DNA from: Strigamia acuminata
Taxonomy: Eukaryota
DNA length: 64,000 nt
Direction: 5' to 3'
NCBI GenBank assembly: GCA_949358305.1
Contig: OX442314.1
Coordinates: 4,712,001 to 4,776,000 of the forward strand
The notes under the pieces are model-generated. The model made no database searches and was not told the DNA's origin. It worked only from the letters and a program-made list of their open reading frames with translations. Both the position numbers and the translations under genes were made by a program. Below are positions 1-36,089 of the stretch, in pieces. Numbering within the stretch: the first letter of the stretch is position 1; each line of letters starts with the position of its first letter.

Positions 1-98
1 GTTCAGTTTGATCTCTGGATGACGGATTGATTTTCCAGTACTTTTGTCATCCGATCAGTCAAGACTATTATTATGTAGTGAGAATCGAAGTGAATAAA

Positions 99-1369: not shown

Positions 1370-1385
1370 GTATAATTATAATGAA

Positions 1386-11704: not shown

Positions 11705-14700
11705 ATGGAGAGAGAGGATTCAAATCGACCACTCGGCCGAATTCAACAAATGAGAAGACGAAAACTGCTTCAACTTGTTCGCATTACTATGTCGAAGCAA
11801 GAGAGGACTCCGCCATTCATCAAAAGTTTGACAAAAATATTGGAGAAGAAAAGAAATATCAAGATTTTACTTTGTGTGTTACTAATTATCAATTTGGCAG
11901 CTTGTGTTTATCAAACAGTAGATCGGGTATTGTATTTCATGGACGAACCCACAGCAGTTGATGCACACATGATTGAAACAACGCATGGTTCCTTCCCCTA
12001 TGTTTATTTATATCCGTTTACTACGCAAGAATTTAACAATTTCATTTTCAACAAAACAAAAAAATCTAACGACAAAGATCAATGTACAGGATGTGAAATG
12101 TTCCCAACATGTTCAAAATATAGTATCAGTGATATTCTACAATATTCTACTACACATAGTTACATAACTGATGCCTACTTCAAAACAGTAAATCATTTTC
12201 ATTTTTTCTCCTAACCAAACTAGAAAAGTTTAACCAAATGAGGAAAAAATTATATTTACAGCCTAAAATGCGCATTAACCTTACAATTGCAAATTATGAG
12301 ACTGTGGGTTTGGCCATTGCACAAGTTTCCAGTCGTAAGTCAACAATATTTCCTGTTTTCTTTATTTTTACAAGTTCCTTTTTCCCTTAGCAATTTCGAT
12401 TCCATATGGGAATGCTGCTTATAAGATGGTCATAAAACTTAATTTTCCCAAGAAATGTGAAATAGTTCGAGTGAGTATTTAATTTCATCGACAATTCACA
12501 CAATTTATTTTGCATTTCTCACAGCCACAAAATTACACACCACATTTTTAAAAAAATGAGCGTCCCTTTTTAGCTGTCAAAATTGTGAAATACTCAGTAA
12601 TATAAATTTGATAATCATTCTTGAAACGATTGCATTCTATTTTAAGGTGTTAATAGATCCATCATCAGTCGTTTATCATGTATACAAGCCATTCATACAA
12701 CAAATAAAACGTGGCAAACATACAGTTGGGATTAGAGTGCAAGAAGTAAGGATTAAATTGATAATTATTCACACAGAAAAAAGAATTATTTTCTAGCCAT
12801 AAATCAAAAGTATTTCTTGGATCTATCAGCCTTATTTAAGTACAATTGCTAATTATTTACTGATATGTATAAGGGCCATCCGTAATTTACATAATGTTGG
12901 TTTTTGGTTGACTAGAATTAACATCAACATGTAACCTCAAATTTCTGTTACAAGGTCGTAACAAATTCCCTCCCTTCCTCCAGAGAAAATAAGATAATAA
13001 AAAAGACCTCCTTCAGGTGCTATGTTATTTAAGGAAGGCCCCATAATAATACAGGAATTTGAAACATTTACTTTAGAATCATTATATCAACACTAAGAAA
13101 AATCCATGCGATAATAATTTACACGATTGCTTACGCCCATGCCTCGTCAAACGAATGAAATGCAAGTAAGTTTTTTAATTCGACTCAATAACAGAATTCA
13201 ATGAAAGAATATTTATTTCTGTGCATAAATCACAAATCAAAAAATTTCAAAAATATTTTTTTATCTGACTGCTATTAATAAAAATTTGAAGTTAACTTAA
13301 ATATAGGTTGTCACATTAGATATCCATTTTATGAAGCGAGAAATCTACCGGAATGCAATGACAAAGACACTTTGATTCAGTTCAGACTAATAGATAACTT
13401 TATCGGCTCAAATGGTTTAGAATCACAGTGTAGGTGTGCTCATTTATGTGATGAGACAAGTTTCAGCCAAACATTCGAAAGAACACCTGATGATGGATAT
13501 AAAATAGAGATTTATGTTGTCAATACTTTCGTTCGAACATTAGTCGAACACTTTTCTTATGACATCATCAATTTGCTATGCGACATTGGAGGAAACATCG
13601 GCCTCTACTTCGGAATGTCTTGCTTGACACTAGTCGAAATATTCATTCACTTATGCAAAATGTGCATCACCAAACCAATAACACCAAATTACAAGTTGAC
13701 AGATAAAATTGAAATGACGCTTGAAAAGATGCAGAATCGCCGAAAACCAACTTTTGTTAAAAAGTTGATCAAAATCACAACTTCACTTTTCCTTGGCTCG
13801 ATGTCAGTCTACTACATTTACCATTTGATTGATTCTTATTTTCAATTTCCACTCTTGAAAACTGTTAAACTCATTAGAGATGAAAAAATTAATTTTCCAC
13901 TAATTATTGCATGTGCAGACAGTGCAAACATATTACATGCTAAAAAAGAATTAGCCAAAAAACTCAACACAATTGATTGTGATCATTTCCAACTGTTGGA
14001 TTTACTCCATCCACTATCTGAATTCGCAAATCAACCACTGCAATTGTGGAATGCCTCCTCTCTTCTTGATGTCTACGACAGAGACCGGAGAAACGCTCTC
14101 GAGGTAAAAAAAAATTAGAATATTAAATTCAAATATTAAATTCAAACGCGTAGAAATTTAACAAACTTGTAGAGAGGGGCAACAGCAGAAGAAAGTGAAT
14201 TACATTTTGCTAAATTATCATTAAAACCAACAGTGTATGGAATGTGTACTGTGTTTAATGAAGGTAAAAAAACAAGTCACTTTTAATTCTCACTAAATTA
14301 TTTTTACACAGTTGACCGGCCGTTTTCTCGAAAGCAAAACTTTATATGGATTTACGAACAGCTCAGAAGTGACTGTTTTAAACGAGAAGTGAGATAGCAG
14401 CTCATCCTTGACACTGTTAATTGCAGCAGTTACAAATTTCGCTTTCTGTATTCCAGCACTTCATTTTGCCAACAAATCAATTTTTTCATCCGAAATTTCG
14501 TTTAGATGTATCCAACAATTTAAGTTATTTTGTCAACTTCGTCCCTCAAACAGTAAATTCAAAAAATGATAAATCCACTATACTCTGGCTCACTATAAGG
14601 TTGCCCTTTCTCCCATTGGCCGAGTCTCACTACTTCTAACTGTAGACTGTGTTCTACTACTAGACCTGTGCGCCGAGCCCAATTTGTCGGCGGCGGCTTG

Positions 14701-16927
14701 TTGCGGCTGATCGCCACGAGATGGCGGCGGCTCGGATCGGCTTCGTTCGTAGGAGCCGGCGGCTGGCGGCTCAGCCGATGACGTATGGTATCGGCGGCGG
14801 CCAGCCAGCTGATCGGCTAAGCCGAAATTTTTCGATAAAAAATAATGAAAATAACAAAACGAATACGAAATAAACCTGTAAAACCTCCAAACCAAAAAAA
14901 GAAAAGAAAAAAAAATGAAAACAGAAGTGAAATTAAAAAAAAAGAAAGAAAATCCAAAAATATGTTGTTTTTTTTGTTAAGCCTGGTTCACACTTGCGGA
15001 TATGCTGCGAAATTGTTGCATCCGCGGTTTGCTACAATGAGCTGTGATTGGCTGCGAAAAAAAAATTGCGCGGAAAACTAGAAAATATTTCCGCAGCCAA
15101 TCACAGCCCATTTGCAGCAAACCACGGATGCAACGTATCCGTGGCGTATCCGCAAGTGTGAACCAGGCTTTACAAAAAATTTCAGCCGTTCGACGCCGGA
15201 AGATCAGCGGCGGCGGCGGCTTGTAAATTGTCGCCAGGACTCGCCACACGGCGGCGGCGGCTGGGGTCCAGCCGACCAGCCGCCGAGCCGAGTCGGCTAA
15301 GCCGACTCGGCGCACAGGTCTATCTACTACCAGGAAAAGTAGTTTTTATTTTTGTGATTATTATAAAATAAAGATTAAAATGATAGAATTTAAATTTTAT
15401 CTTATAGTAAAATGTTTTTTCCATTTAAAAAATACAGTTTTAAGCTGTGTCTATTTCTACAAACATGTCTGTTCAGTTTATTGGTTGCTTTGTCTGAAAA
15501 GCACACTGTCTGTACATCGATTGCAATTCTGGTGTTTTGGTCTATTTTTCGTATCACTACATAAGTGAAATGGGTCGGCCAATGGGAGAAAGGCCAACCG
15601 TAATAGTAAGCCAGAGTATAGCGCATTCGAAAAGCCGTTGCAACAGTTTAAATAGCGTGATTAGACTTCAAAAATGGCACCAAATTTAATCTGCATCGGG
15701 TGTCATTTAAATGTCTCGATTAAAAAAGTATAAATAAAAAAAAAAATGTTTAACGAGTGCTTTTGAATGCGCCGACCGTTATTTGACAAGTTTATCACTG
15801 CTTAACCAAACCAACTAACAAATTTGAAAACTTGTCGTCACTATTGAGAAATTATCGACAGTTTTGAAAAAATCAAACTTTTCTTTGGTTTGGGACCCCA
15901 ATTTGTTCAAGGGCTCACACTGCAACTTATGTGGGTGTGGCCAAATTGCCATTTAGTTGATTAATCTTTCCAGCTTGTTCGATTAAATACCCCGAGAAGT
16001 CCTTGCAGACCAAATGATGAAGTTTTAAGATGTGAAGAAAACTGCTATGAAAAGATACTCGAGCAACAAACTTTCAATTGCAGGTAACTTGTAATTCATC
16101 CACTAATTACTCTGAATCCCATATTGCACTTTACAAATCATACATTGTTTGAGTATATTCCTAACAATCAAATGGAGCAAATTTATTGGTAACAGCATGT
16201 GTATCCAGGTTTCCATTTATAAACAGCAAAAACAGCCAAAAGGTGTAGAGCACCATTTATTTAGTTTAAAAATTAAACAGTTTAATCGTCTGAAGAAAAA
16301 CTGTTTCAGAATGTTTAATTAAAAAAAAAAAGACTTGCCACAGCTTTGAAGATGAATGATAATATTATTTATTTTTAAAACTTTCAAAGATAGAAATTAA
16401 AATGATTGAAAAAAATGCTCATGAGCATTTGTCATTGTTGCCAATAAATTTAATTTGCCACATTTGATCTACCTTGCTAAGTTGCTACCTTAGCACACTC
16501 AAACAGTTCAAGTGTTTACCCAATTTTTAATAAGTGGAAAAAATCATGTGTCATGGCACACTGTGTATTTCCAGTATATTGTTATATTACTAGACTTCCA
16601 TCCATGGATAAGAGTAAATTTCCCCTTTGCCTAACTCAAGAGACGGCTAAAACAACTTACGAGACATATTTGAAAACTCAGATGAAGACAAACCCCCGGG
16701 AAGACTGTTTCTGCAAACCATCCTGTAACGAAACCATCTTCAATCCTTCAATTATCAGCAGCATAGAGCGCAAATCACAACCGTTTGTTTGGTATGTGAT
16801 TGAAAATAACATGAGAGAAATAATTGAAGAACAGCAAGAGGTTACCATTGTAAAGTTATTGTGTCAGATTGGATCTATTATTGGTATTCTCACCGGTTTC
16901 TCCTTATTTTCTCTTCTTCAATTTTGA
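11705..16927 (+). CDS. DEG/ENaC (ASIC/pickpocket-family) channel, tandem two-subunit protein, copy A; ~771 aa; exons 11705-12187, 12262-12334, 12391-12470, 12647-12745, 13077-13165, 13320-14103, 14173-14263, 14312-14388, 14457-14552, 15974-16083, 16594-16927
   Basis: All 10 introns are GT-AG and the frame stays open (2316 nt). Domain 1: TM1 ILLCVLLIINLAACVYQTV, FPYVYL, Cys-rich thumb, TM2 LLCDIGGNIGLYFGMSCLTLVE. Domain 2: TM1 ITTSLFLGSMSVYYIYHLI, FPLIIAC, TVYGMCTVFN, thumb CFCKPSCNE, TM2 LLCQIGSIIGILTGFSLFSLL. AATAAA at 16955. Confidence 0.88.
12871..13042. mobile_element. Degenerate MITE (GGGCCRTCC…GGAAGGCCCC, Harbinger-like) in intron 4, shared by all gene copies; related end at ~1790-1809
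   Basis: Imperfect inverted termini; similar sequence TAATTTATGGACGGCCCCT near 1800. Confidence 0.4.
14661..15322. mobile_element. Non-autonomous hAT-like element in intron 9 of copy A
   Basis: TIR TAGACCTGTGCGCCGAG; 8-bp TSD TCTACTAC; absent from the same intron in copies B and C. Confidence 0.85.
14980..15169. mobile_element. PIF/Harbinger-like MITE nested in the hAT element
   Basis: TIR AGCCTGGTTCACACTTGCGGATA; TTA on both flanks; largely palindromic. Confidence 0.8.
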
Positions 16928-16954
16928 TTGCCTTTAATTCCACGAGTTTAAAAT

Positions 16955-16960
16955 AATAAA
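16955..16960 (+). promoter_or_regulatory. Candidate polyadenylation signal of copy A (copy C equivalent 41438-41443)
   Basis: AATAAA 28 nt after the stop codon. Confidence 0.55.
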
Positions 16961-17759
16961 ATGTTGCTTAACTTATAACTGGATGCATTCAATTTGTACT
17001 GTAAATGCACTAATAGAATGTGACGTGTGCTTTACAACGCAGGTCTAAATCAAACTAAATTGAAAAAAACGACTAGAATAAATGTCTAAATTGATCAAAA
17101 ACACTAAAAAAAATCGTGGGGGAAATTTAAGTTCTAACAACAAAACGCCTGCATTTATTTAAAGAATCTAGAGTTAGTGGTTAAGCCACTTGTGCAGTGT
17201 CTTACAGTGAAGTTTTACTCCCTTTATTGCACACTTGCAGATCCTCTTTTATTATCATCCTTCTTACTGTGTCTGACCTCCTGAAAATTACGTAAACCAA
17301 TCTTCAGGGTGCTCACGTTGTTTCTCCCTATGCACTTCTCCAAACAACAATTAATCAAGCTCAGTGTTTGTTTTATACGAGAATTTACCAATTAAAAGTC
17401 AATAATACCATCATGTTGAATTTAATTTGAATGCAACATGTTTGAAACACTCATTAGTTATGAGTGTTTCAAACATGAGTCATAACAGATGGCAGCACCA
17501 GCAAAATAAAACCTATCTCTTATCATACGCGGTTTGTTACATGCTTTTGGATTGGTCATTGGAGAGCTAAACGATGACTGTTTTGCAGTCTCCACATTGG
17601 TTGTTAGTTTATGACATAGGTAGTTTACTTCATTTATTGTTGAACATAGAAATACTATATCTTGTAAGCACAATTAAAATCTCACAGAACTTGGAACTTC
17701 ATTCCCAACTTATTATGTACTCTGTATTAATTTATTAAGATAAATGTCAGTTACCATGT

Positions 17760-18008
17760 TGTGACGATTTTACCTTTTCTACCTTTTGCTAAAGATGAGA
17801 TAAACCTAACCTACCAAAATAAGCTAAACTACAGTGTGCGCGCTAAGTGAAAATACAACGTGAATAACTTACAAAGAATATCGATAAATAGTATTGTTTA
17901 TTAACAAGGAGTCCGGGTTCTAAATACACGTGAAATAATGGGGGGCAACATCTGGTTGGATGTGCTGGGCGGGCCGAGAGAAAGGGCTGGCTTCGCGGCA
18001 TTGTCACA
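17760..18008. mobile_element. Possible short solo LTR (TGTGACGAT…ATTGTCACA); copy at 42243-42491
   Basis: Inverted TGTGAC/GTCACA termini; flanks ATGT/ACGT (one mismatch). Confidence 0.4.
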
Positions 18009-19755
18009 ACGTATCGGAGCTAGGCCTAGTTTTAGGCCTACGCAACAATAACGCACGTGGATGCGGAGATTTCTCCGCATCGCTTTTAAACCTATATTTC
18101 ATCGATTAGATCAATCGATTAGATGAGAATTGAACAATTCTCATATGCTACTCTCTATTAATTTATTAAGACAAATGTCAGTTATCATGTACAATTTTGA
18201 TTTCGATTAATTAATGTAACGTTGTAGACAGAAGGTGAACTCACAGTGTCATTTAAACTTATTTCCTGTATATTTTTTAAACCAGTCTAAACGTAAAATT
18301 TTGCTCGTTAAATGTGTAGTGTTTTAATTCATTAAAGCAATTAAATTTGAGTCAAACATGTGCGAGTAATTGATTTTAATTTAAACTCTATTTTCAATTC
18401 AGCAATATTAATATTCATCTAGAAAAACAGATCAATCCCATATTTTACGCCATTATACGCCATTCATGTCCCCTTGTCTTTCTATCAACTTAGATAAACG
18501 GATAAAACCACAGTTGGCTTGTCAGTAGATTTAATCGATACCAAAATGCCAAAATATCTGACACTTAACAAGATGGCCACCTCAAGACCGGTCGCTTTTC
18601 ACTGTCGTCCCTAAGATAGATCGAGAACTTATTTTTAAAAATATCTGATCAGTTGACAAGATGGCCACCGAGACCGGTCGCTTTTCACTGTCGTCACTAG
18701 ATCGAGAACTTATTTTTAAAAATGTTGATAATATGGTCGTTATATTCAACGAAATAGCTAGTGTCAAACCTCCCGGTCGTGCTGCTATCAACAAATTCGA
18801 ATCCAGTGTGAAGAAAATCTATCAAATACTGAATAATGCGCCCATCTCCGAAGCTGACCACGCGGACCATGATTCTGGATCTCGTAGGCGACGAAAAAGA
18901 CAAAAACCAGGTACAGATAGCACAGTAATTAAACCTACTTTGCAACAATCCGCTGATCTCAACCGTGACAATGACTGGCAAACTGATTATTCCAACTTTA
19001 CCAACCACGCGCCTAACCCTAATTCGACAAAACCGCCGGCAAATCAATTGTCTTTCACGCACACCACCATTGCTGATGTCCCCAACTTCATCTCTAAGGA
19101 CACTGAGTACCAATATCGTCAATCCTTCCAATATTGCTGAAAATAATGCTGAAAATAATTTCGTAACGCCCGCATCAACCGCTGCTCGGGCCGACGCCAA
19201 TGAAGCGGACACAGATGTGGCCCGTGCCGCCGCTGCTGCCGCCATTTCCGCGGGTGCCCCAACCACGCTCGTCGTCGGTCTGCTGCATCTTTCCTTCCAC
19301 TTCACCCAGAGAAGAGAGGACCCAATGTATAAAATAATCCAACAATTGACTCTTTTCGTTACCGAAAGTCACACCGAAATTGTCTCTCTACAATAATCGT
19401 TCACCAGTCGCCAGATTTCAACTCCGCCAGTCAGCAACCAACTCCGGACCCAGCGCCCCAACCATTGTGCCCAGTCGACCCTGCTGACGTTCGCACAGGC
19501 GGCAGCCCAGCCTCGCCCGGTGATTGAATACAGCGAATCTCCTCCTGTCGACCCAGTGATGGACTCACGTGCAAACAACACCGCTCAAACTACACGTACC
19601 CGCTCCAACATTGGCACTGTTGATGACTGCACTATCCACGCTGCCACCCCCCTCGATGACCGCCCGACGTCACGCATTCTCCTAAGCAATTTACAGAACT
19701 CCACCACGAACAAAAAAGTCCAGTCATATGCCGAGTCCAGTGCGCCAGGTGGACG

Positions 19756-20928
19756 TGTGACCGTTTTGCCACTGTGGGTCGCCCACGGTGACTCACGTCA
19801 CTCCACACACTGCTCTCTGACCCCTGGTCACCCCCTCTAGCGAGTAGGGCTGACCCAGTGGGGAAGGAGGGAGCTGAGTGGTGTGACTGCTATGGTCTCG
19901 CCAGTGTAGTCAGGGGACTGATAACACTGGGTAGGGACGCATACTTCATGTAAATAACGGGGAATCCCACAATATTGGTTGGTTGGCCTTTATTGTCTTG
20001 TCTAGGGGTATGGGGAATCCCGTTACCCGTTGCAAGGGTGCCACGAAGGCACGCCGCACCGGCAACCGACCCGTCACACACTGGGCGCGAGCCCAATGGG
20101 TGACGTGGTCGGTTCAACGTTACATTCATGCTGTACTTACCTACAGCCCGCAGTGACCACTCATGGAGGCTGTATTGGGTGGAAAACCCAGATACTGAGC
20201 ATCGCTGTGGTGAATGGGAAGGAGTGCAGAGTCCTCTCAGCCGGGACACGCCTTGTCCCCTCATCAACTACAACACCCTGGAACTCTGTCAACACACGAC
20301 CTGCCTGGTCGGTGTCCGCACTCTCTCTCTCTGCAACTCCTCCCCACACCACTTAGCTCCCTCCTTCCCCCGGGCTAGATCACCTTGCCCAATCAGGGGG
20401 TGATCTTGGGGCCGTATGGTGGTGTGTGGCAGTGACGTAGGTCACCCCAGGTGGCCCGACGGTCACAGTGGTGTGGGAGGAGGAGCATTGAGTCGAGAGA
20501 GAGAGTTTGGACAGCACAGAGTGAGGACGTGTGCTAGAGAGTTCCCTTAGCCAGCCTGGGCAGTGCAGTGCCCCAGTTGACTCTGCTTTTCTCCCATTCA
20601 CCACTGTGACGCTCAGTGATAGGGAGATGACCCTATTGCAGCCTCCATGAGCAGCTACATGGGCTGAGGTAAGTAATACCGCAGGAGAATGAGTTACGCC
20701 AACCGACCACGTCATTCATAGCCAAATCGCCCTGTGGATGACGGGCCGGTTGAAGGTGTGGTAGGCCTAATGGCCCCGACACGGGTGAGGTGTACTCCGA
20801 CCCCTAGCCAACGGCTTAAAGGCCAAAAACCAACAATCCGGAGTCCCTGTATCCATTATTTACGTGAGAGTCGATCCCACCCGCGGTAATCAATCCCCAG
20901 ATTGTCGTGAGAGCGATGACCCGTCACA
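19756..20928 (+). mobile_element. Solo LTR (TSD GACG) containing a nested opposite-orientation solo LTR; copy at 44239-45411
   Basis: GACG|TGTGAC…GTCACA|GACG. Confidence 0.85.
19882..20467 (-). mobile_element. Nested solo LTR of the same family (TSD GTGG); copy at 44365-44950
   Basis: GTGG|TGTGAC…GTCACA|GTGG; reverse-complement similarity to the host LTR. Confidence 0.85.
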
Positions 20929-21899
20929 GACGAAGGAAGATAAAACTATTAGAAAGTCCTTTTTCTTGCTCATCGCCACAGACAATATCACCCCGCTTCT
21001 ATCCACGGCCCTCTGGCTTTGTAGCATCGGCGTCCGCCCCTTTCGTGGTAGAAACCCCCCACTTCTTTCATCAACTCAAATTAATGTTTAATTACGCTTA
21101 ATTTGTTTAATTTGTTTTTACCTTGTAATTTACTCCATGGGAGTGCTTAGAATAAAACAAACAAACTATCAATTACGTCAACTCTGCCATGACCTAAGCG
21201 CCATCTGTCGGCTCAAATACAAAATTAAATAACACTGACCATCCGATTCGATCAGCTTTTCGGTTTTGGTCATCTAAATCCGATCCGAATTTTTCCAATG
21301 TATTTGCTCATTTGTCATTTCAATAAAACAAATGAAATGAAGTCATTTCAAACCGAATTTTTCAGCATTCCGATTACATTCTGATTACATTTTGATCACG
21401 TTACGGCCATATTTTGCCGATTCACGGATGTAGATTCTTCTGCCCACCAATTCAATTCTTATTATTGTTTCCAACAACATGAAAAGGCAAAAATGCACTT
21501 ACTGTTTACGGGTGAACGTGGTAGCAACAGAATTCCCAGTGCGCCGATGCGTTCGTGCGCGCCACTGTCCTTCGAACCTCGTTTTCGTCCAGCAAATACT
21601 CCAACATAAATGGCAACTTGATGCAGTTTTCACTTGCTTTTTTTTATTTTTCTGAAAATATTACCAAAAATGATTTAACAATTGTGTTTTCACAACAAAA
21701 GAATCACATTAGGACTCGCTTTGGTTCCGGTGGTGAGTCGTGGAACCTGGAAACCGAGTCGTTCGATTCGTTAACTCGCCGCTAGATGTCACACAAGTAA
21801 GAAACAATTTCCTACATACGAAATTGGAAATAGTTTGATTTCATTTAAAAATCATTTTTTTAAGGCCAAATGTGACATATCAATAGACCACTTATTGCA

Positions 21900-23237
21900 A
21901 TTGAATTATCATTTTAGTGAATTATTCATTGTTGGAAAGTAACTTAGATTACCCCATTAAATGTTTTGTATTTAGATTAAACTCAAACACAAAACTGCAA
22001 CTTCATCAAGTTGAGTTTCTTTGAAATTAGAAATTATACAGTATGTTTGGTGAATTATTCGTTCTTGGAACATTGAATTACAAATGAAATACTAGTATTT
22101 TGTATTTAGATTAAACTCATTCAACAAATGTTAGTGGTAGACAGACATCACATGGCATGAGTGATGCTGCACTGATCTCACTTAGAAGAAAACAACAACT
22201 AGAAACTATATTTGTATTGGCCTTTATTCACATGGTTGTCTAAGGCTTAGTTCCCAGAAATGTTTCCCTTGTCTGGTTTTCATTGCTACAATCCAACCCA
22301 ATATCAACCCTTGACCGTGTTGTTAAGAGACCATGTGGCCAGCGAGATATGATTTCTGCTGTGTCTCTGCACAGGCTTGCTGAGAGCTTCAGGTCAGTAC
22401 CTTCTCAGGTCACACGAGTGCGGTCATGCATCCGTTCATGGTAGTCTAAGAATGTCTCATTCATGAGACCTTGCCAGTCCTTTCTTTCCATTGGTTGCCA
22501 GACTACTTCCGGGACCGGCAGCACCACCTGACAGGGGGCGGTGCCCAGGATAAAAACTAGTAATAAGTGTCAGTAACCGACGGTCACACAAACTCCGGCT
22601 TCATACGATTTTCTTTGAAGTTAAAAATTATATGGTATATCTTGTAAATTATTCATTTTTGGAACGTGACAGACTGACAAATGAAATGTTTTGCATTTAG
22701 ATTAAACTCATTCAACAAACTTCAACGTTATAGATTAGATTTTCTTTGAAATTAGAAATTGTACTTACATCTGGTGAATTATTCATTCTTGGAAAGTAGC
22801 ATGAATAACAAATGTAGAATTTTACATTTAGATTAAACTCACGGAAGAAACTTCAACGTCTAAAATTCATTTTCTTTGAAATTAGAAATTATACAGTACA
22901 TCTGGTGAATTATTCACTGCTGAAGAGTAACATGAATAACAGATGAAAAATTTTGCATTTAGATTAAACTCATTCAACAAACTCCAACGTCATAGATTAG
23001 ATTTTCTTTGAAATTAGAAATTATATGTTACATCTGGTGAATGATTCTTTCCTGGAAAGTAACATGAATAAGAGATGTAGAATTTTGCATTTGGATTAAA
23101 CTCACGCAAGAAACGTCAACGTCTAAAATTCATTTTCTTTGTAATTAGAAATTATACAGTACATCTGGTGAATTATTCATTCCTGGAAAGTAACATGAAT
23201 AACAGATGAAAAATTTTGCATTTAGATTGAACTCATG
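21900..23237. repeat. ~120-bp satellite array with solo LTR (upstream of copy B); duplicate at ~46385-47720
   Basis: Same unit as 3690-4920, different copy number. Confidence 0.85.
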
Positions 23238-24384
23238 CGGTATCCGATCACTTCAGTGACCATCGTGAAGTCGTGAAGTCATGAACTGGAGAAAACGGTA
23301 AGTCAAATTTTGAATTGAAGATACAGTGTACTCATTTGGAAAGATGTGTGATCCAAACAGGTTTGCTGGACCCAACGTATAGCCAGTAATGTTATATTCC
23401 CTCTCCTAGCCTGTTAGTCTGGATAACTTTCTTAGATCGTCCTATGTCCAAGCTTCACAGAGTTTACTGTAGATATGAGAATGTAACAGGTTAATTCTTT
23501 AAATAGTTTTTCTGTGATTCAGCGGATGGAAAGCAGGTGTAGTAGTTTTGTGAGTTTGGTAGGTAGTCGAGCTGCTCGGTTCCTCAGTGTGTTCTCTTGG
23601 TCAAAATGCAATCAGTTTGCAACAATTTGCAACAGTTGTGATTGCATTCCCAATGCATAAAGAATTTTATATTGTTATGTACACCATGGGGTATGATATA
23701 TATTGTCAGGTGCTTGGTTTTAATTTTAATCTCTTCCATCCTAAATTTTCTTATTTTTCAATTCATTTATTTTTATTTATTTTGCCGACTCACCTTTTGT
23801 AATGAATGCACATAAAAGATCTTTGTGCATTTTATGACTCTTAAACTTTTTAGTTTGCCCCATCCCTGATCATAATTGATATGACTTGTCAATCAAGTGA
23901 TCAGACCTGACTTATGAGCTACATTACCTACAAAAATCACTTCTTGCTTAATTGTCAACAGAGTTCTATACGTGAGATCGTCATTATAAATAGTGTTGTT
24001 ATTCCAAAGAACTGGGATTTCTAACCGTCCAACTCAAATAATTGATGCAGCTTTGTAACTTCCTGTCTGCACATGAAGTAAAAACACGGTTCTTGATGCG
24101 TTTTTTCGCGGACTCAATGATATATACCATAAATTAGAAATATGTAATGTTACCAGAGAATTTATAGATTTAAAGAAAGCTGCCAAACTCGCCAATGTTA
24201 CATGTAACAGTCATTAGTATAATTAAACACCACTTATTGTGAGATAAAGCAACTAATGAGTTTATTTCAGGCTGAATAATTTTAATGAAAGGTTGGGCAA
24301 AGTACAAGTGCAAAGTACAAGAATTCGTTTTATGTTATTTGAACAAAGGGGGAATATTAATCGATATTGCTTGCCATATTATTC

Positions 24385-24929
24385 TGTGACTGTTTGGCCA
24401 CCCTAGTGGCCTACGTCACTCCAAACACCACCTGGCGGCCCCAAGCCGACCTCCTCTTGGAGGAGTGGACCGGCCTAGTAGGGGAGGTAAGAGCAGAGTG
24501 GTGTGGTGAGCGAGAGACTTGCTGAGGGAGCTGAGGGTGAAGACGTGTCAGGTGCAGCTGCCGCGCTCCTAACCATAAGTAGAGACAACTACTGCTCAGT
24601 TCCGCTCACCATTCACCACTGTGACGCTCAGTGGCAGTCTCATTACTATGAGTGGCTACATGGGCTGTAGGTAAGTACAGCAGAATGTTTGTCCGAGGCA
24701 TCCGACCACGTCGTACACGGGCGTAAAGCCCTGTGTGCGACGAGCCGGTTGCCGGTGTAGCGTGCCTAAGAGCACTCTACACAGTGAGGCGAGAGGCCCC
24801 AACCCCTAGACAACGATTAAAGGCCAAAAGCCACCAATCTGGAGTCTCTGTCTCGCCTTTACGTGATGTAAGCGTCCCTCTCGTGTAGTAACTTCCCACA
24901 CTATACGGGTCTGACCATAGCCAGTCACA
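24385..24929 (+). mobile_element. Solo LTR, same family as 19756 (TSD ATTC); copy at 48868-49412
   Basis: ATTC|TGTGAC…GTCACA|ATTC; shares CCATTCACCACTGTGACGCTCAGTG and TTAAAGGCCAAAA with the 19756 LTR. Confidence 0.85.
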
Positions 24930-25320
24930 ATTCGATAATGCATTTAAACTACACAAGTGATGTAAAACAATATAAAGATATTATTGTTTAATTTCCACAA
25001 TTAAACATTTTACATTTTCATTTTTAACAAATTTTGCTAACTTGCTCCTGGCGTTTGGTCAACTGTATTGAAGATTTGTTTCCGAAAGAAACAAAAGCAA
25101 AAGCTTAGCATACACCTAACTAATAAGGCCGTTTGAATCTAAATTGAAGAGTTAGAAAGATGAAGAAATTATCAAACTAAAAGCGTTTGTTCGTGTTTGT
25201 TCCCATTCAATTAGTCATATTTCTTTCAAAATATGATTGATGTTTGCTGTGTAATAAAAAACAGAATCATTTTCATGTCGTAAAAATTCTCAAGTATTGA
25301 TTTCAAAAACACTGGAAATA

Positions 25321-26084
25321 CAGGGTGGACAAAAAGTATGGTTCACAGTAAATAATTCCCAAACTGTTTTAGTTGTTGATTTAGCAAAATGATTGTAAGG
25401 GTAATTTTTTGGGGGAAATCCAATTATGACATCGAACTTGATCTCAGAGGTCATATTCAAGGTCATTCATCTTGTAACTCGAGAACCGTGACAGATAGAG
25501 CAAAAAGGTGAATCAGAAAGTTGTAGAGCATCATCCAATTAATCAAGAACCGTTCTGAAAAAAATTATTTCTTACTGAAAAGTTTTGAGAAAAAAGGTCT
25601 GAAACATTAGTCTACTCAGCATTGTAACTCAGCTTTGTAACCTAAAACTATTGAGGCAACCAAGCTAATCCTCAATTAGGACACTTTATTCGGTCATACT
25701 TGTAAGTGGAAGAGAGGAAACACAAACAAAAAGAAATAAATTATTTTGGAAATACATTCCAACATGATAGTTTTAGGTTACAATGCTGAGTAGACTAATT
25801 TTTCAGACCTTTTTTCTCAAAACTTTTCAGTAAGCAATAATTTTTTTCAGAACGGTTCTAGACTAATTGGATGATGCTCTACAACTTTCTAATTCACCTT
25901 TTTGCTCTATCTGTCACGGTTCTCGAGTTACAATATGAATGACCTTGAGGATGACCTCAGAGGTCAAATTGGATATCATAATTGAATTTCCCCCGACATT
26001 CTACCCTTACAATAATTTTGCTGAATCAACATCTAGAACAGTTTGGGAATTATTTACTGTGAACCATACTTTTTGTCCACCCTG
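25321..26084. mobile_element. Long-TIR mariner-type MITE (CAGGGTGGACAAAAAGTATGG…, ~300-bp arms, TA TSD); copy at 49804-50567
   Basis: Large foldback flanked by TA; empty site GGAAATATAATTCA at ~7570. Confidence 0.88.
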
Positions 26085-26758
26085 TATAATTCATAGCTTT
26101 TTTTAACGACGCACAATCTTCATCATAAAATGAATGATTTACTACCTTGTTTTTCTGTCTGCATTTGGAAGCAAGCAGTTGCTGATACTGAGTCAGCCGG
26201 GGCCAAGTTGTTCTAATATATCTAACACAACAGCTGTACGGTGTTAGAAACAAACAACGATAGATTTTACTCGTCGGCTGTCTCATTCTAAGCTTGAGCC
26301 ATCATTTGCAAACCTAAGTTCAGGTAAGCCTTCTAAAGATGAGTAAAACATCTTAAAGTTAAGAAATTTTGATTTTGACCAACAACCAAAAATGAAACCA
26401 CCAAAATAAACACCAAATTAAATCATTCTTTTCATTCTTTTTAAGAAAATTTTGTTTCAGCCATAAAAATTCATTCTAATAAGTTATTCTATGTCCAAAA
26501 CAAAAATTTATGTATGAGTGGGAAGAAAAATCAAACAGAATTTTGGCCAGTTAGTGTTAAAATTTCATTTCATTGTTAATTGACGTACTGTATAGACTTA
26601 AAGTTTCGTACATTTTCTTAAGAATATGGAAATGAAAAACATTCAGATATTTGTGTTTTCCATTCAGACTAGCTCTTGTTTCCACCCAAAAATGTACAGT
26701 GATCAATTTTTAGCATTCTGCCCAGGTAGTGATATCGATGCGTTGTAACAAATACCAT

Positions 26759-27304
26759 ATGACTGTTATGGTTTTGCCCATGATAACCTGGGGACTGGAT
26801 ACCATTGGGTGGGACGCATACTCACGTAAATAACAGACAAAGACTCCAAAGTGTTGAGTTGTTAGCCTTTCATCCTTTTATCTAGGGATTGGAGTCTCCC
26901 ATCTACACCCGTGTTGGCAGTGCCACACCAGCAACCAACCCGTCACACACAAGGAAGGGTCCCCATGGGTGATGTGGCCGGTTAGACATAACTATTCTGG
27001 CGTATTCACCCATGCGGCCCATGAAACCGCTCATGGAGGTTGTGGTGGATCCGACATCTCACCACTGCGCATCGCAGTAATGAATAGCTAGAGAGCAGAG
27101 TCAGCACAAAGCACGACTGCTCTTGCTAGCTTCAGGACTTCACTTCTACTGTCTCGCTTGAGATTCAGCACTTTCCTCTCTCCACACACCACTCAGCTCC
27201 CCCTTCCCCACCCTGTGTCATACCACTCCACAAGGATGGACCTTGGGGCCATTGGGAAGTGTGTGGAGTGGGGCAGGTCACCTTTGGGTGGCCAAGCAGT
27301 CACA
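26759..27304 (-). mobile_element. Older solo LTR of the same TGTGAC…GTCACA family; fragments at ~6199-6460, ~7630-7832, ~10393-10722; duplicate ~51243-51791
   Basis: Colinear similarity to 19882-20467; TSD not clear. Confidence 0.65.
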
Positions 27305-27836
27305 ACTGATCTTGTGCATGTCTCCTAATGAGCCCGTTTATGTATACCAATTTGGTCTAACACTGCGCATAGGTTGTGGTATAACGAATATATTGTCAGA
27401 ATTCGTTCGTTTTTTTTTTTACCTTAAAATAGGATTAAGTTTTTCTTTTCGACTTTGTGTCTTACCTTGATACTGGTTAGGTGTGATGCATTCTTTAACA
27501 TTGTCGCAGATATTAATTTGATCAATGTCGCCATATCGTTTTGTTTGGGCGTTGTGGTGGTTTCGTTGATCGTTTTGTTACCGTTGTCTATGAATAATTT
27601 CGTTTTGTTGTCGGTCAGCAAGATTACCTATATAGGTTCGTTTTTGCGTTCGTTTTTGCGTTCACTTGTAAAAGTGAACTAGTTGGCGATCTTAGTTCGC
27701 AAACTAACGAACTTTGTTCCCGAACGCGAACTGATAGTTCGCGTTCGACACAACACTCGCGCCGTGAGTCGACAATGAAGAGTTGGTAAACTTTTACCAA
27801 ACTAGACTCTTTAATTTAAAATTTTAAATAGTTTAA

Positions 27837-28110
27837 CGAAGTGGCTACGTTCACGTCCGACACTGAACGTATTGTTTTCAAGGCGCGCTTTGATTGGTTG
27901 AGAGATGCATTGACGAAAAACCCCGTTCTGTCTACATTGCCAAAAATAGATAAGGTTAGGTCTGCTAGGAAAAAAGAAGCGAACACCTCGAAATACATCG
28001 ATGTGAGAATACTTACATTGACTAAACGAAGTGCCATCGTTAGCTCCTAACCAATCACAGCGCGCCTTGAAAATAATACGTTCACGTCGGACGTGAACGT
28101 AGCCACTGCC
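27837..28110. mobile_element. MITE family copy (same insertion as 9910); duplicate 52324-52597; 3' remnant at ~36560-36644
   Basis: Same TIRs; TSD ATAGTTTAA/ATAGGTTAA. Confidence 0.8.
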
Positions 28111-28217
28111 ATAGGTTAAATATACAAAGTTGTGACCGATTGCCAGTCACTTCGATACAATGCCCACAAAGAATAGTCCAACCCAACCCCGCCCCGCCTA
28201 GTTCAGTTGATGGTTAA

Positions 28218-28706
28218 AGGTCAAGTGCACTGAGTGGGTTTTATTTTTTTTCTGATAGAGCATAATGAATAATAATTTTTCATATCAAAAAAAAATAAAA
28301 TTTGGGCCTTTATCACTGTTTAATAACAATTGAAAAAGTTGACTTTTTCAATATGATGCATCATGGTTGTTGGCTGGATGACCTACGTCATCAGTTCTGT
28401 GGTGGTTGGTGGTGGTGTTGTTGCGCATGCGCATCAGACTGCACATGCGCAAAAGACAGTTTTAAACTCGGCAATCAAGGTCATCCATTATGAATCCACC
28501 CTAGGCTCGGAACTAGTTCCAGGTCAACTGAACTAGAGAACTGACAACGTCATACTCCCATGATTCTTTGCCTCGTCAACACCCGATATTGCGATTGTTA
28601 TTAAACAATGATAAAGGCCCAAATTTTATTTTTTTTTGACATGAAAAATTATTATTCATTAGGCCCTATCAGAAAAAAAATAAAACCCACTCAGTGCACT
28701 TGATCT
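28218..28706. mobile_element. TTAA-inserting MITE (AGGTCAAGTGCACTGAGTGGG TIR, Kolobok-like ends) just upstream of copy B; duplicate 52705-53193
   Basis: About 115-bp TIRs; TTAA TSD; empty site GATGGTTAATGTAATC at ~10277 and ~36738. Confidence 0.85.
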
Positions 28707-28992
28707 TTAATGTAATCACATGACATTATATTGGGTGATGTCATAATAAAATACGAGATCACGTGGTAGCATCCTGCAACCAGCAACTCCTCCTGGCATG
28801 GTGACATTGTATTAGTAAGTTAGGCCATATGGGTGTTTGTTGGTCTGGTTGACTTTTTTAAATGAATAAAATGTTACAACACACGAAAGCAATTTGCATA
28901 ATATGTCAGCTGACAATCAATTAAAGTAATCAATATTAATCTCAACAGCTTCGTGCCACATCGATAACTGCACTTACAAGTTAGAAGAAATA

Positions 28993-31826
28993 ATGGAGAG
29001 AGAGGATTCAAATCGACCAACAGGCCGAATTCAACAAATGAGAAGACGAAAACTGCTTCAACTTGTTCGCGTTACTATGTCGAAGCAACAGAGGACTCCG
29101 GATTTCATCAAAAGTTTGACAAAAATATTGGAGAAGAAAAGAAATATCAAGATTTTACTTTGTGTGTTACTAATTATCAATTTGGCAGCTTGTGTTTATC
29201 AAACAGTAGATCGGGTATTGTATTTCATGGACGAACCCACAGCAGTTGATGCACACATGATTGAAACAACGCATGGTTCCTTCCCCTATGTTTATTTATA
29301 TCCGTTTACTACGCAAGAATTTAACAATTTCATTTTCAACAAAACAAAAAAATCTGACGACAAAGATCAATGTGCAGAAGATGAAATATACCCAGAATTT
29401 TCAAAATTTAAAATCAGTGATATTCTACAATATTATACTACACTTAGTTACATAACTGATGCCTACTTCAAAACAGTAAATCATTTTCATTTTTTCTCCT
29501 GACCAAACTAAAAAAGTTTAATCAAATGAGGAAAAAATTATATTTGCAGCCTAGAATGCGCATTAACCTTACAATTGCAAATTATGAGACTGTGGGTTAT
29601 GCCACTGCACAGGTTTCCAGTCGTAAGTCAACAATATTTCCTGTTTCCTTTATTTTTACAAGTTCCTTTTTCCCTTAGCAATTTCGTTTCCATATGGGAA
29701 TCCTGCTTATAAGATGGTCATAAAAATTAATTTTCCCAAGCAATGTTCACATGTTCGAGTGAGTATTTAATTTCATCGACAATTCTCACAATTTATTTTG
29801 CATTTCTCACAGCCACAAAGTTGCACAACACATTTTTTAAACACTAAGCGTCCCTTTGTAGCTGTCAAAATTGCGAAATACTCAGTAATAAAATTTGATA
29901 ATCATTCTTGAAACCATTGCATTCAATTTCAAGGTGTTAATAGATCCATCAGCAGTCGTGTATCATTTACACAAGCTATCCATCCAAGGCCTACAAATAA
30001 AACATGACAAACATACAGTTGGGATTAGAGTGCAAGAAGTAAGGATTAAATTAATAATTATTCACCCAGAAAAGAGAATTATTTTCTAGCCATTACTAAA
30101 AAGTATTTCTTGGATCTATCAGCTTTATTTAAGCACAATTGCTAATTATTTACTAATATGTAATAAGGGTCATCCGTAATTTACATAATGTTGGGTTTTT
30201 GTTGACTAGAATTAACATCAAATTTCTGTTACAAGGTCGTAACAAATTCCCTCCCTCCCTCCCTAGAAAATGAGATAATAAAAAAGACCGCCTTAAGATG
30301 CTGTGTTATTTAAGGAAGGCCCCTATAATCATACAGGAATTTGAAAAATTTATTTTAGTATCATTATATCAACACTAAGAAAAATCCATGCGATAATAAT
30401 TTACACGATTGCTTACGCCCATGTCTCGTCAAAAGAATGAAATGCAAGTAAGTTTTTTAATTCGACTCAATAACAGAATTCGATAAAAGAATATTTATTT
30501 CTGTGCATAAATCACAAATCAAAACATTTCACAAAATATTTTTTTATCTGACTGCTGTTAATAAAAATTAGAAGTTAACTTAAATAAAGGTTGTCACATT
30601 AGATATCCATTTTATGAAGCGAGAAATCTGCCGGAATGCAATGACAAAGACACTTTGATTCAGTTCAAACAAATAGAAAACTTTATCTTCATAAATGGTA
30701 CAGAATCACAGTGTAGATGTGGCAATTTATGTGATGAGACAAGTTTCAGCCAAACATTCGAAAGAACACCTGGTGATGGAGATAAAATTGACATTTATGT
30801 TGGCAATACTTTTGTTCGAACATTAATCGAACACTTTTCTTACGACATCATCAATTTGCTATGCGACATTGGAGGAAACATCGGCCTCTACTTCGGCATG
30901 TCTTGCTTGACACTGGTCGAAATATTCATTCACTTTTGCAAAATATGTGTCACCAAACCAACAACAAATTCCAAGTTAACAGATAAAATTGAAATGACGC
31001 TTGAAAATATGCAGAATCGCCGAAAACCAACTTTCGTTAAAAAGTTGATCAAAATCACAACATCACTTTTCCTTGGCTCGATATCAGTCTACTACATTTA
31101 TCATTTGATTGATTCTTATTTTCAATTTCCACTCTTGAAAACTGTTAAACTCATTAGAGATGAAAAAATTCATTTTCCATTCATTATTGCTTGTGCAGAC
31201 AGTGCAAACATATTACATGCTAAAAGCCAATTAGCCCAAAAACTCAACTCAACTGATTGTGATCATTTCCAACTGTTGGATTTACTCCATCCACTATCTG
31301 AATTCGCAAATCAACCACTGCAACTGTGGAATGCCTCCTCTCTTTTTGATTTCTACGACAAACAACGGATATTATTACTCAAGGTAAAAAAATCAGAATA
31401 TTAAATCATCAATTCAAACGTGTATAAATTTAACAAACTTGTAGACCGGGAAAACAGCAAAGGAAATTGAATTATATCTTCCCAAATTATCATTAATACC
31501 GACAGTGTATGGAATGTGTACTGCGTTTAATCAAGGTAAAAAAACAAGTCACTTATAATTCTCACTAAAATATTTTTACACAGCTGACAAGCCGTTTTCA
31601 CGAAAGCAAAACTCTGTACTGATTTTCAATTGGCACAGTGGTCACTGTAGTTTTAAACGAGAAGTGAGATAGAAGTTTATCCTTCATACTGTTAATTGCA
31701 GCAGTTACTAATTTGACTTTTGTATTCCAGCACTTCATTTTGCCAACAAATCAATTTTTTCATCCGAAATATCGTTTAGATGTATCCAACAACTTAGGTG
31801 TTTATGTCAACTTCGCCCCTCAAACG
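28993..31826 (+). CDS. Tandem DEG/ENaC gene copy B: exons 1-9 intact, exons 10-11 absent (3'-truncated; could be a pseudogene)
   Basis: Exons 28993-29475, 29550-29622, 29679-29758, 29934-30038, 30359-30447, 30603-31383, 31445-31535, 31584-31663, 31731-31826 are open and GT-AG. Intron 9 homology stops at ~32070. Read-through stop at 31847. Confidence 0.7.
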
Positions 31827-32070
31827 GTGAATTCAAAAAATGATTAATCCACTGACTATAAGGTTGCCCTTTCTCCCATTGGCCGAGTCTCACTACTTAT
31901 AACCGTAGACTGTGTACTACCACAAAGAAAAGTAGTTTTTATTTTTGTGATTATTATAAAATAAAGATTAAAATGATACAATTTTAATTTTATTTTATAG
32001 TAAAATGTTTTTTTCCGTTTATAAAATACAGTTTTATATATTATATGCTGTGTTTATTTCAACAAACATG

Positions 32071-33868: not shown

Positions 33869-34149
33869 AGTTTTCACTTGCTTTTTTTTATTTTTCTGAA
33901 AATATTACCAAAAATGATTTAACAATTGTGTTTCCACAACAAAAGAATCACATTAGGACTCGCTTTGGTTCCGGTGGTGAGTCGTGGAACCTGGAAACTG
34001 AGTCGTTCAATTTGTAAACTCGCCGCTAGATGTCAGACAAGTAAGAAACAATTTCCAACATAGAAAAATTGGAAATAGTTTGATTTCATTTAAAAATCAA
34101 TTTTTTAAGGCCAGGTGTGACATATCAATAGGCCACTTATTGCAATTGA

Positions 34150-35500: not shown

Positions 35501-36089
35501 TGCGGTATCCGATCACTTCAGTGACCATCGTGAAGTCGCGAACTGGAGAAAACGGTAAGTCAAATTTTGAATTGAAGATACTGTGTACTCTGTACAGATC
35601 GGACAGTGTTCACCCGGAAAGATTTGTGATCCAAACAGGTTTGCTGGACCCAACTTATAGCCAGTAATGTTACATTACCCTCTCCTAGCCTGTTAGTCTG
35701 GATAACGTTCTTAGACCGGTCCTATGTCCAAGCTTCACAGAGTAAACTGTAGATATGAGAACGTAACAGGTTAATTCTTTAAATAGTTTTTCTGTGAATC
35801 AGCGGATGGAAAGTACGTGTAGTAGTTTTGTGGGTTGGGTAGGTAGTCAAGCTGCCCGGTACCTCAGTGTGTTCTCTTGGTCAAAATGCAATCAGTTTGC
35901 AACGATTTGCAACAGTTGTGATTGCATTCCCAATGCATAAAGAATTTTAAGTTGTTACGTATACCATGGGTATGATATATATTGTCAGGTGCTTGGTTTT
36001 ACCCTCCATTTTATCTTTAAACTCTTCAGGTGACTTATGGGCTACACTCCCTACTAAAATCACTTCTTGCTTAATTGTCAACAAAGACA

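What the first reader, a model, noticed from the sequence alone, without database searches (positions are those of the whole stretch)
11705..16927. Natural covalent tandem-dimer DEG/ENaC channel: two complete subunits in one ~771-aa, 4-TM polypeptide
Seen in sequence: exon 6 (13320-14103) is one uninterrupted frame. It runs from the thumb and TM2 of subunit 1 (LLCDIGGNIGLYFGMSCLTLVE, ~13573-13638) through a ~35-aa basic linker into TM1 and the FPLIIAC motif of subunit 2 (~13765-13914). Later exons supply TVYGMCTVFN, a second Cys-rich thumb and a second TM2 (LLCQIGSIIGILTGFSLFSLL*). Because the junction is inside one exon and is conserved in all five copies, it cannot be a gene-model merge of neighbouring genes. 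Established: DEG/ENaC/ASIC/ppk subunits have 2 TMs and assemble as trimers, and concatemers are familiar as engineered constructs. I know of no characterised natural one but cannot check the literature. Inference: a dimer cannot fill a trimer alone. It would need a monomeric partner (fixed 2+1 heteromer), three chains forming two linked pores, linker proteolysis or a non-canonical stoichiometry.
Basis: partly seen in the sequence, partly recalled or inferred. Interest (0 to 1): 0.92.

Follow-up and report, generated by a model that had tools for sequence, protein, structure and literature searches.

The report
Centipede ion channel with fused subunits
This gene, likely from a soil centipede, joins two different subunits of a normally three-subunit sodium-channel family (DEG/ENaC) in one reading frame; the same layout recurs in a large, old gene family of the centipede Strigamia maritima, and it likely fixes two of the three positions in a sensory channel.

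Summary
Confirmed. Eleven GT-AG exons give an open 771-aa frame with two DEG/ENaC (Pfam ASC) units. The junction (TM2, 36-aa basic linker, TM1) lies inside exon 6. Both halves repeat the intron phases 0,1,0,0,2, so exon 6 is a last exon fused to a first exon.

The fusion is old. Strigamia maritima models tile the protein at 43-56% identity, 16 named models carry the junction, and two (T1JD34, T1ITL7) are full doubles. First and second halves form separate groups in a tree. The second half has an altered pore helix (non-Gly at 3' in 10 of 11 rows; Gln at 0' and 18' here). The membrane core is under purifying selection, while outer patches diversify. A separate group, with two named decapod members, has three units per chain.

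Most likely the chain fills two positions of a trimer and a monomer fills the third; this is inferred. No RNA evidence was available and both structure predictions failed. Correction: the five window copies are three distinct sequences, and two lack exons 10-11. Ten paper searches found no description of a natural concatemer.

The parts
11705..12187 (+). Exon 1: start codon, basic N-terminus, TM1 of unit 1 (about 11849-11932), finger region
   Evidence: S. maritima P0008 starts at the same place and matches aa 1-269 at 48%
12262..12334 (+). Exon 2 (ends phase 1; counterpart of exon 7)
12391..12470 (+). Exon 3 (ends phase 0; counterpart of exon 8)
12647..12745 (+). Exon 4 (ends phase 0; counterpart of exon 9); holds a hypervariable patch
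13077..13165 (+). Exon 5: start of the Cys-rich thumb of unit 1 (ends phase 2; counterpart of exon 10)
13320..14103 (+). Exon 6, the fusion exon: thumb and TM2 of unit 1, linker, TM1 and finger start of unit 2
   Evidence: 784 nt against 334+483 nt for last plus first exon
13573..13659 (+). TM2 of unit 1, canonical pore residues D0', G3', G6', G10'-M-S12', E18'
   Evidence: 28-29 of 34 residues identical in four S. maritima models
13660..13767 (+). 36-aa basic linker (9 K/R, 3 D/E), inferred cytoplasmic; aligns with the N-terminal segment of unit 1
13768..13914 (+). TM1 of unit 2 and FPLIIAC motif
14173..14263 (+). Exon 7 with the GMCTVFN motif
14312..14388 (+). Exon 8; holds a hypervariable patch
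14457..14552 (+). Exon 9
   Evidence: P0004, P0006 and P0007 match across it
15974..16083 (+). Exon 10: start of the thumb of unit 2
16594..16927 (+). Exon 11: thumb and TM2 of unit 2 (Q0', S3', G6', G10'-F-S12', Q18'; stop after 19'); AATAAA at 16955
   Evidence: P0004 ends at nearly the same place
28993..31826 (+). Paralog B: exons 1-9 open with intact splice sites; no exons 10-11 of its own
37029..41410 (+). Paralog C: 772 aa, open; exons 1-9 about 90% to A, exons 10-11 identical to A (likely a crossover chimera)
53480..56313 (+). B', duplicate of B
61516..64000 (+). C', duplicate of C; runs off the window after exon 6
15824..40306 (.). 24.5-kb unit repeated in tandem at 40307-64000 (99.89% identity), with its border in intron 9

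Best explanation
The gene encodes two unlike DEG/ENaC units head to tail in one frame, the product of an old tandem duplication and fusion, and the predicted four-helix chain likely fills two neighbouring positions of a trimeric cation channel, with a separate single subunit likely filling the third. Shown by sequence: the fused frame, its origin (last exon of one copy joined to the first exon of the next), its age and family expansion, a conserved difference between the two pore helices, and fast change in outer patches. Inferred: that the full chain is made; that it assembles 2+1; that the third subunit is a monomer from another gene (such monomer-length models exist in S. maritima) or an in-frame exon-skipped product of the same gene; and that the channel is an antennal or cuticular sensory receptor like its nearest solved relatives BRTNaC1 and PDPNaC1. 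Fusion would fix the order and the interface of two unlike subunits, and would allow only one altered pore helix per channel.
For: Fusion: intron phases 0,1,0,0,2 in both halves; 3 of 5 intron pairs align exactly, 1 is off by one column and 1 by six; halves are 24% identical; whole-length HMM-HMM E 1.1e-13. Age: S. maritima models tile aa 1-771 at 43-56%; T1JD34 and T1ITL7 align end to end with the spliced protein at 21-22% (E 8e-34, 2e-31); first units (13 rows, 91/93) and second units (16 rows, 92/92) each form one side of a branch; the G10'-to-post-TM1 spacing is 79-107 aa in 21 of 22 aligned rows. Selection: exon indels were multiples of 3 in 8 of 8 pairwise counts, while intron indels are mostly 1 nt; dN/dS 0.21-0.41 over TM2a-linker-TM1b; non-synonymous change in ectodomain 2 (0.12-0.15) exceeds intron change (0.045-0.073), p about 1e-5 to 5e-5 in 3 of 3 pairs, and variable sites cluster (0 of 2000 shuffles). 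Pore asymmetry: Gly at 3' in 12 of 12 first units, non-Gly in 10 of 11 second units read. The 3' Gly is the narrowest gate in PDPNaC1 (PMC12714832 passages). Engineered ASIC1a trimers with E18'Q in one of three subunits keep the Na>K>Cs order, and lose it with two or three (PMC5449180 passages); unit 2 here carries Q18'. One Ser and two Gly at 3' is the ENaC alpha/beta/gamma pattern (recalled, not found). The nearest solved relatives are centipede antennal channels; PDPNaC1 is reported as a homotrimer.
Against: No transcript or protein evidence bears on this gene, and no partner subunit was identified. The window encodes no single-unit relative. The S. maritima monomer-length models (for example T1IGW0, P0029) could be partial models. 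Engineered ASIC1a dimers give currents without a co-expressed monomer, with smaller by-products (PMC4529235 passages), so a partner need not be required. Support for the two unit groups is below the tool's star threshold, and one first-unit row fell outside its group in the 84-row quick tree. The selection tests rest on three related copies and pairwise counts, and gene conversion could shape them. Sensory function is borrowed from relatives that match only in the thumb-TM2 region.
Confidence: 0.5

Rival explanations
1. The fused chain assembles with itself and needs no partner gene: two chains make one trimer with one unit left outside, or three chains make two pores bridged by one chain.
For: Engineered ASIC1a dimers and tetramers give normal currents alone, and the authors raise the option that only three units take part (PMC4529235 passages). 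No monomer gene lies in the window. Linkers in the family vary by about 28 residues, which would suit a loose tether.
Against: Some pores would then hold two second units with a non-Gly 3' and Gln 18'; in ASIC1a two E18'Q subunits collapse the selectivity order. A dangling unit may hinder export from the ER (general knowledge, untested here).
Confidence: 0.27
2. The two units are separated again before they work, by transcripts that end or start near the junction or by cleavage of the linker, so the fusion only co-regulates two ordinary subunits.
For: Concatemers of ASICs shed monomer and dimer by-products in oocytes. ATTAAA words lie in intron 6 of A, B and C. Most S. maritima models of the closest subfamily are partial.
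Against: No stop interrupts the frame at the junction in any of five window copies or in 21 of 22 aligned rows. A transcript ending in intron 6 would still encode TM1 of unit 2. The linker is inferred to face the cytoplasm, and no cleavage word is conserved across the family. No poly(A) hexamer lies within exon 6.
Confidence: 0.1
3. Two chains form a four-unit channel (dimer of dimers) with alternating first and second units.
For: An even number of units fits this most simply. One cross-linking study argued for tetrameric ASIC1a (PMC4529235 passages).
Against: PDPNaC1 is reported as a homotrimer, ENaC is a trimer, and the BRTNaC1 entries list three chains each. A separate arthropod group concatenated three units, not four.
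Confidence: 0.07
4. This copy is a decaying duplicate in a repeat-rich array, or one unit is a non-conducting appendage.
For: Overall dN/dS is near 1 for A-B and A-C. B and B' lack the last two exons. Unit 2 stops at 19' and lacks the 0' and 18' acids; unit 1 lacks two family Cys motifs. A frameshifted dynein fragment and transposon pieces lie nearby.
Against: There are no stops or frameshifts over about 1.9 kb in three copies that differ by about 8-10%. The near-1 average hides purifying selection in the membrane core and excess change outside. The unusual unit-2 pore residues and short end are shared with S. maritima P0004, and several insect PPKs also have C-termini of 2-14 aa.
Confidence: 0.06

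Closest known systems
BRTNaC1 (PDB 8YMR-8YMX; PMC9974506) and PDPNaC1 (PDB 9JF7; PMC12714832), Scolopendra subspinipes mutilans
   Same: Best solved matches for both thumb-TM2 regions (E 1e-7 for unit 1; E 7e-4 for unit 2); short subunits (421-431 aa against about 385 here); PDPNaC1 also lacks the pre-TM1 HG motif; G6' is kept.
   Different: Single-unit proteins with two helices, 7 and 9 exons. Neither paper's text mentions a fused form (word search). No claim of orthology; ligands untested.
ENaC alpha/beta/gamma and heteromeric ASICs
   Same: Unlike subunits in a fixed order in one trimer (passage; PMC10329638 abstract and passages); asymmetric pore residues (ENaC detail recalled).
   Different: The subunits are separate gene products; here two are one frame.
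Engineered ASIC concatemers (PMC4529235, PMC5449180, PMC10329638)
   Same: Head-to-tail fusion through a cytoplasmic linker gives working channels; a one-in-three E18'Q construct mirrors unit 2.
   Different: Laboratory constructs of near-identical subunits with full tails; this one is natural, 24% identical between halves and has a short linker.
Uncharacterised S. maritima double-ASC models (UniProt T1JD34, T1ITL7, T1IPM9, T1JBK6, T1J963 and others)
   Same: Same architecture and junction; units group by position.
   Different: Unnamed automatic models, mostly partial; 21-27% identical outside the closest subfamily.
Three-unit ASC proteins: Halocaridina rubra KAK7028032.1, Penaeus vannamei XP_069977668.1, and unnamed P0041, P0099, P0092
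   Same: Natural concatenation of DEG/ENaC units in one frame.
   Different: Three units and a separate branch (99/99), so likely an independent origin; the middle unit is shortened in P0092 and P0101.
Repeat-fused channels such as Nav, Cav, TPC and K2P (recalled)
   Same: Subunit fusion that fixes order and allows pore asymmetry; TPC and K2P are two-repeat chains.
   Different: Those are four-fold channels, which two-repeat chains can complete by pairing; two units cannot complete a trimer.

Membership tests
DEG/ENaC (Pfam ASC PF00858) | ASC domain match | tested here: met
   Exon 6: 2 stretches, 45.9 bits; exon 11: 33.9 bits; cut-off 23.6. The S. maritima unit-2 counterpart P0004 spans profile 27-451 of 455. 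Exon 1 alone has no ASC hit; P0008 has only E 0.32 at profile 8-76.
DEG/ENaC (Pfam ASC PF00858) | Two membrane helices per unit flanking a large ectodomain | tested here: met
   Met per unit by profile; hydropathy alone finds 3 of 4.
DEG/ENaC (Pfam ASC PF00858) | One unit (two helices) per polypeptide | tested here: not met
   Two units in one frame; this is what makes it a variant.
DEG/ENaC (Pfam ASC PF00858) | Cys-rich thumb | tested here: met
   Eight Cys at matching places in each unit (256-318; 635-705).
DEG/ENaC (Pfam ASC PF00858) | G-x-S belt in TM2 | tested here: met
   GMS at 373-375 and GFS at 762-764.
DEG/ENaC (Pfam ASC PF00858) | FPxxTxC and GxCxxFN ectodomain motifs (as tabulated in PMC8438182 Table S1) | tested here: inconclusive
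   Present in unit 2; in unit 1 the FP is kept but both Cys are absent, and aa 101-245 are not recognisable alone.
DEG/ENaC (Pfam ASC PF00858) | Pre-TM1 HG motif | tested here: not met
   The only HG lies at aa 94, after TM1; the bona fide member PDPNaC1 also lacks it.
DEG/ENaC (Pfam ASC PF00858) | Palm-thumb-finger fold | tested here: inconclusive
   The Atlas model of P0004 residues 62-394 matches an ASC cluster at TM 0.68; my own AlphaFold2 runs were uninterpretable; unit 1 was not modelled whole.
DEG/ENaC (Pfam ASC PF00858) | Trimeric assembly and cation current | not testable with these tools
ASIC (proton-gated, Na-selective) | E18' and D21' lower-pore acids in each subunit | tested here: not met
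   Unit 1 has E18' but I21'; unit 2 has Q18' and ends at 19' (numbering as in PMC5449180).
BRTNaC1/PDPNaC1-type centipede sensory channels | Orthology and heat or proton gating | not tested
   Only local similarity; their sequences were not in my trees.

The most novel reading that the evidence does not exclude
Covalent concatenation of DEG/ENaC subunits is an undescribed architecture that arose at least twice in arthropods. In geophilomorph centipedes it produced a large, diversifying family of two-unit sensory receptors with a built-in asymmetric pore, completed by one monomer. That monomer may come from the same gene, since skipping five exons gives an in-frame single subunit in five ways. 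In decapod crustaceans it produced three-unit genes that encode a whole channel in one chain.
Probability: 0.45. Interest if true: 0.92.

Novelty: new variant of a known kind. Interest (0 to 1): 0.82.

Why it matters
DEG/ENaC subunits are described as two-helix monomers that form trimers, and I found fused versions in print only as laboratory tools. A natural two-unit chain poses a counting problem that can be tested directly, and it revisits the trimer-versus-tetramer question with a native protein. It shows which pore positions diverge once subunits are locked in order (3', 0', 18'). It also points to a large, mis-annotated candidate receptor family in a centipede described as blind (PMC9974506 passage). 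The three-unit crustacean proteins suggest that trimeric channels took the same repeat-fusion route as Nav and Cav channels. They would also be natural scaffolds for single-subunit mutagenesis.

Tried and rejected
No whole genome is held for this window, so copy number, B's missing exons and partner genes could not be surveyed.

RNA: no RNA holder listed. The two listed runs, X1 and X2 (one study), cover introns and show no joint matching my introns, so they behave as DNA; they may be the source sample and are not independent. One X1 contig spans 13584-13728 with no difference.

The word-index search for 458-2000-aa relatives found 0 of 1108 candidates; the later HMMER search did find long relatives, so that blank was a sensitivity limit. 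Metagenome contigs: 176 pattern matches, none confirmed.

AlphaFold2 on P0003 (pLDDT 35) and P0004 (pLDDT 38) failed on shallow alignments, so no fold search was run.

HMM-HMM comparison of the N-terminal parts alone was no better than shuffled columns (7-29 of 40 as high). A PDB search with P0008 found no ASC relative, and one with alignment A4 found ASIC5 only at E 0.38.

An upstream third unit was rejected: the frame before the ATG differs between A and B/C, and P0008 starts at the same Met. P0031 was rejected as a monomer: it begins inside a linker-like segment and groups with second units. The P0011/P0012/P0013/P0021 group is not counted as proven fusion: its units are close to each other and to single-unit models, so these could be merged neighbours.

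Earlier scan findings: nothing by sequence, place or words; one search gave only potassium-channel analogies, which I did not use.
Full report
Observation. I read 10500-18000 and spliced eleven exons, all with GT-AG ends, into 2316 nt: 771 aa, open. Exon 6 (13320-14103) runs without a stop from the thumb and TM2 of one DEG/ENaC unit, through a 36-aa basic linker, into TM1 and the FPLIIAC motif of a second. Pfam ASC matches exon 6 in two stretches and exon 11 once; the other five exons I scanned gave no ASC hit (7 of 11 exons scanned). A profile of 20 single-unit relatives outside the window's subfamily recognises both TM1 regions and both thumb-TM2 regions (29-112 bits, 0 of 200 shuffles each), but not the middle of either ectodomain. 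Simple hydropathy finds three of the four helices.

How it arose. The introns of the two halves have the same phases in the same order (0,1,0,0,2). On a pairwise alignment three pairs coincide, one is off by one column and one by six. Exon 6 (784 nt) is about the sum of the last exon (334) and the first exon (483), and the linker aligns with the N-terminal segment of unit 1. So a six-exon gene was duplicated in tandem and the last exon of one copy was joined to the first exon of the next. The halves are 24% identical (82 of 343 columns). A by-product of the repeated phases is that joining exon k to exon k+6 gives an open single unit of 385-396 aa for all five k, in both A and C. Whether the cell does this is unknown.

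The copies. The window holds five copies, but a 24.5-kb tandem duplication at 99.89% makes them three distinct sequences. A and C are complete and share identical exons 10-11. The mismatches at the start of the repeat unit suggest that C is a crossover chimera. B and B' have open exons 1-9 and no exons 10-11 of their own; C' runs off the window. B may be a recent truncation, may end at a stop six codons into intron 9, or may splice to the exons downstream of C. I could not tell.

Relatives. The near-length search returned 6 of 631 candidates, all Strigamia maritima, and exon 1 returned one more (1 of 156). Together they tile aa 1-771 at 43-56% identity and support my exon joins independently. 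Four of the six carry the full junction; two models skip part of it. From this I infer a geophilomorph centipede; the organism is not shown. A HMMER search with the junction alignment gave 550 hits, of which the best 150 were listed. Of 163 sequences then in hand (those 150, two earlier ones, ten cluster members and the spliced protein), 46 show a TM2-to-TM1 junction: 2 from the window, 14 from the three-unit group and 30 others. I looked up 27 proteins by name. Sixteen of the 30 are named S. maritima and 14 were not looked up. T1JD34 (791 aa) and T1ITL7 (805 aa) are complete doubles with four hydropathy peaks and align end to end with the window protein at 21-22%.

Tree. I cut the proteins into units (84 rows). 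In a 55-row tree (29 long-branched, distant or redundant rows left out; LG+G4) the 13 first units form one side of a branch (91/93) and the 16 second units another (92/92), with partly mirrored subgroups. This fits one old fusion followed by expansion. Support is below the star threshold, and in the 84-row quick tree one first unit fell outside. A separate group (P0011, P0012, P0013, P0021) has units close to each other and to single-unit models and may be merged neighbours.

Three-unit chains. P0041, P0063 and P0099 (1244-1272 aa) have three ASC stretches each and three TM2 motifs; P0092 and P0101 have three TM2 motifs and a shortened middle unit. P0063 is named Halocaridina rubra, and P0101's cluster holds a RefSeq Penaeus vannamei protein. 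Five Logan contigs of 3.4-4.0 kb carry the 1001-aa frame and three of 4.4-4.6 kb carry the 1268-aa frame; contigs that short leave little room for introns or for merged neighbours. Their units form their own branch (99/99; the two shortened middle units were among the rows left out), so concatenation likely arose twice.

Division of features. Unit 1 has a canonical pore helix (D0', G3', G6', G10', S12', E18') that is 28-29 of 34 identical to four S. maritima models, but lacks two ectodomain Cys motifs. Unit 2 keeps those motifs but has Q0', S3' and Q18' and stops at 19'; P0004 shares an amide at 0', S3', Q18' and the short end. Across the family 3' is Gly in 12 of 12 first units and not Gly in 10 of 11 second units. 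In PDPNaC1 the 0' Asp and 3' Gly are the two gates. In engineered ASIC1a trimers one E18'Q subunit keeps the selectivity order and two do not. These points favour one second unit per pore, which is the 2+1 model, but they are an analogy.

Selection. Among A, B and C, exon indels were multiples of three in 8 of 8 pairwise counts, whereas intron indels are mostly single bases. dN/dS is 0.21-0.41 over TM2a-linker-TM1b (p 0.002-0.09), near or above 1 in the ectodomains, and 0.67-1.07 overall. Non-synonymous change in ectodomain 2 exceeds intron change in 3 of 3 pairs, and in ectodomain 1 in 1 of 3. Six hypervariable patches cluster beyond chance. This is the pattern expected of diversifying ligand-sensing receptors, but it rests on three non-independent copies.

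Mechanism and rivals. I put 0.5 on a four-helix chain that supplies two adjacent subunits of a trimer completed by a monomer, acting as a sensory cation channel like its nearest solved relatives. Self-assembly without a partner gets 0.27, since engineered ASIC1a dimers conduct alone. Separation into monomers gets 0.10, a dimer of dimers 0.07, and decay 0.06.

Literature. Ten searches listed no description of a natural multi-unit DEG/ENaC. Limits: the term 'DEG ENaC' scored zero in every listed paper, so it does not match the slash form, which weakens; one search was swamped by a generic term; subscription papers are missing, including Vizueta et al. 2020 on S. maritima, which PMC8438182 cites and which I did not see; bioRxiv supplements are closed. 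What I saw: PMC12714832 (passages, sections 7 and 10); PMC9974506 (passages, section 7); PMC8438182 (passages, which report 46 of 578 insect PPKs with 3-5 predicted helices, and about 125 of 578 rows of Table S1, the longest 656 aa); PMC5203786, PMC4529235, PMC10329638, PMC3866589, PMC7067487, PMC5449180 and PMC6197857 (passages only). The ENaC one-Ser-two-Gly pattern and the comparison with Nav, Cav, TPC and K2P are recalled.

Verdict. The feature is real and old. It is a DEG/ENaC by domain, thumb and pore belt, but it breaks the one-unit-per-chain rule. Such proteins sit uncharacterised in databases and I found none described in print. New variant of a known kind; interest 0.82.

Noticed in passing
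P0041, P0063, P0099, P0092, P0101 (protein hits): Three DEG/ENaC units in one chain; the named members are from the decapods Halocaridina rubra and Penaeus vannamei. Candidate single-chain trimers that deserve their own study.
   Followed up: partly
P0123 and P0127 (ENA contigs): 929-940-aa proteins with six hydropathy peaks and a shortened middle unit, grouping with the three-unit proteins in the quick tree; their last unit has Ser at 3'.
   Followed up: partly
window 28993-31826 and 53480-56313: Copies B and B' keep nine open exons with intact splice sites but have no last two exons; they could be truncated, or could share the exons downstream of copy C.
   Followed up: partly
window 15824-64000: 24.5-kb tandem duplication at 99.89% identity with its border in intron 9; a recent unequal crossover or a haplotype artefact of assembly.
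   Followed up: partly
window 1-1385: 5' fragment of a cytoplasmic dynein heavy chain gene (PDB match E 1e-20) with an apparent frameshift near 975 and no visible continuation after a 20-bp tandem repeat at 1386-1501.
   Followed up: partly
window 14650-15330: Insertion of about 690 bp in intron 9 of copy A, absent from B and C, with a 210-bp palindrome at 14970-15179 (MITE-like); contigs of X1 and X2 show the empty form.
   Followed up: no
window 8730-9326 (-): Tc1/Tc3-type transposase fragment (Pfam HTH_Tnp_Tc3_2, E 1e-13).
   Followed up: no
window 13341-13572: One contig in each of X1 and X2 skips 230 bases inside exon 6, with non-splice ends and a short side; possibly a broken copy elsewhere in the genome.
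   Followed up: no
window 3750-4916, 22608-23238, 34865-35500 and duplicates: Arrays of a 131-133-bp tandem repeat at about 82% match, in several places between the genes.
   Followed up: no
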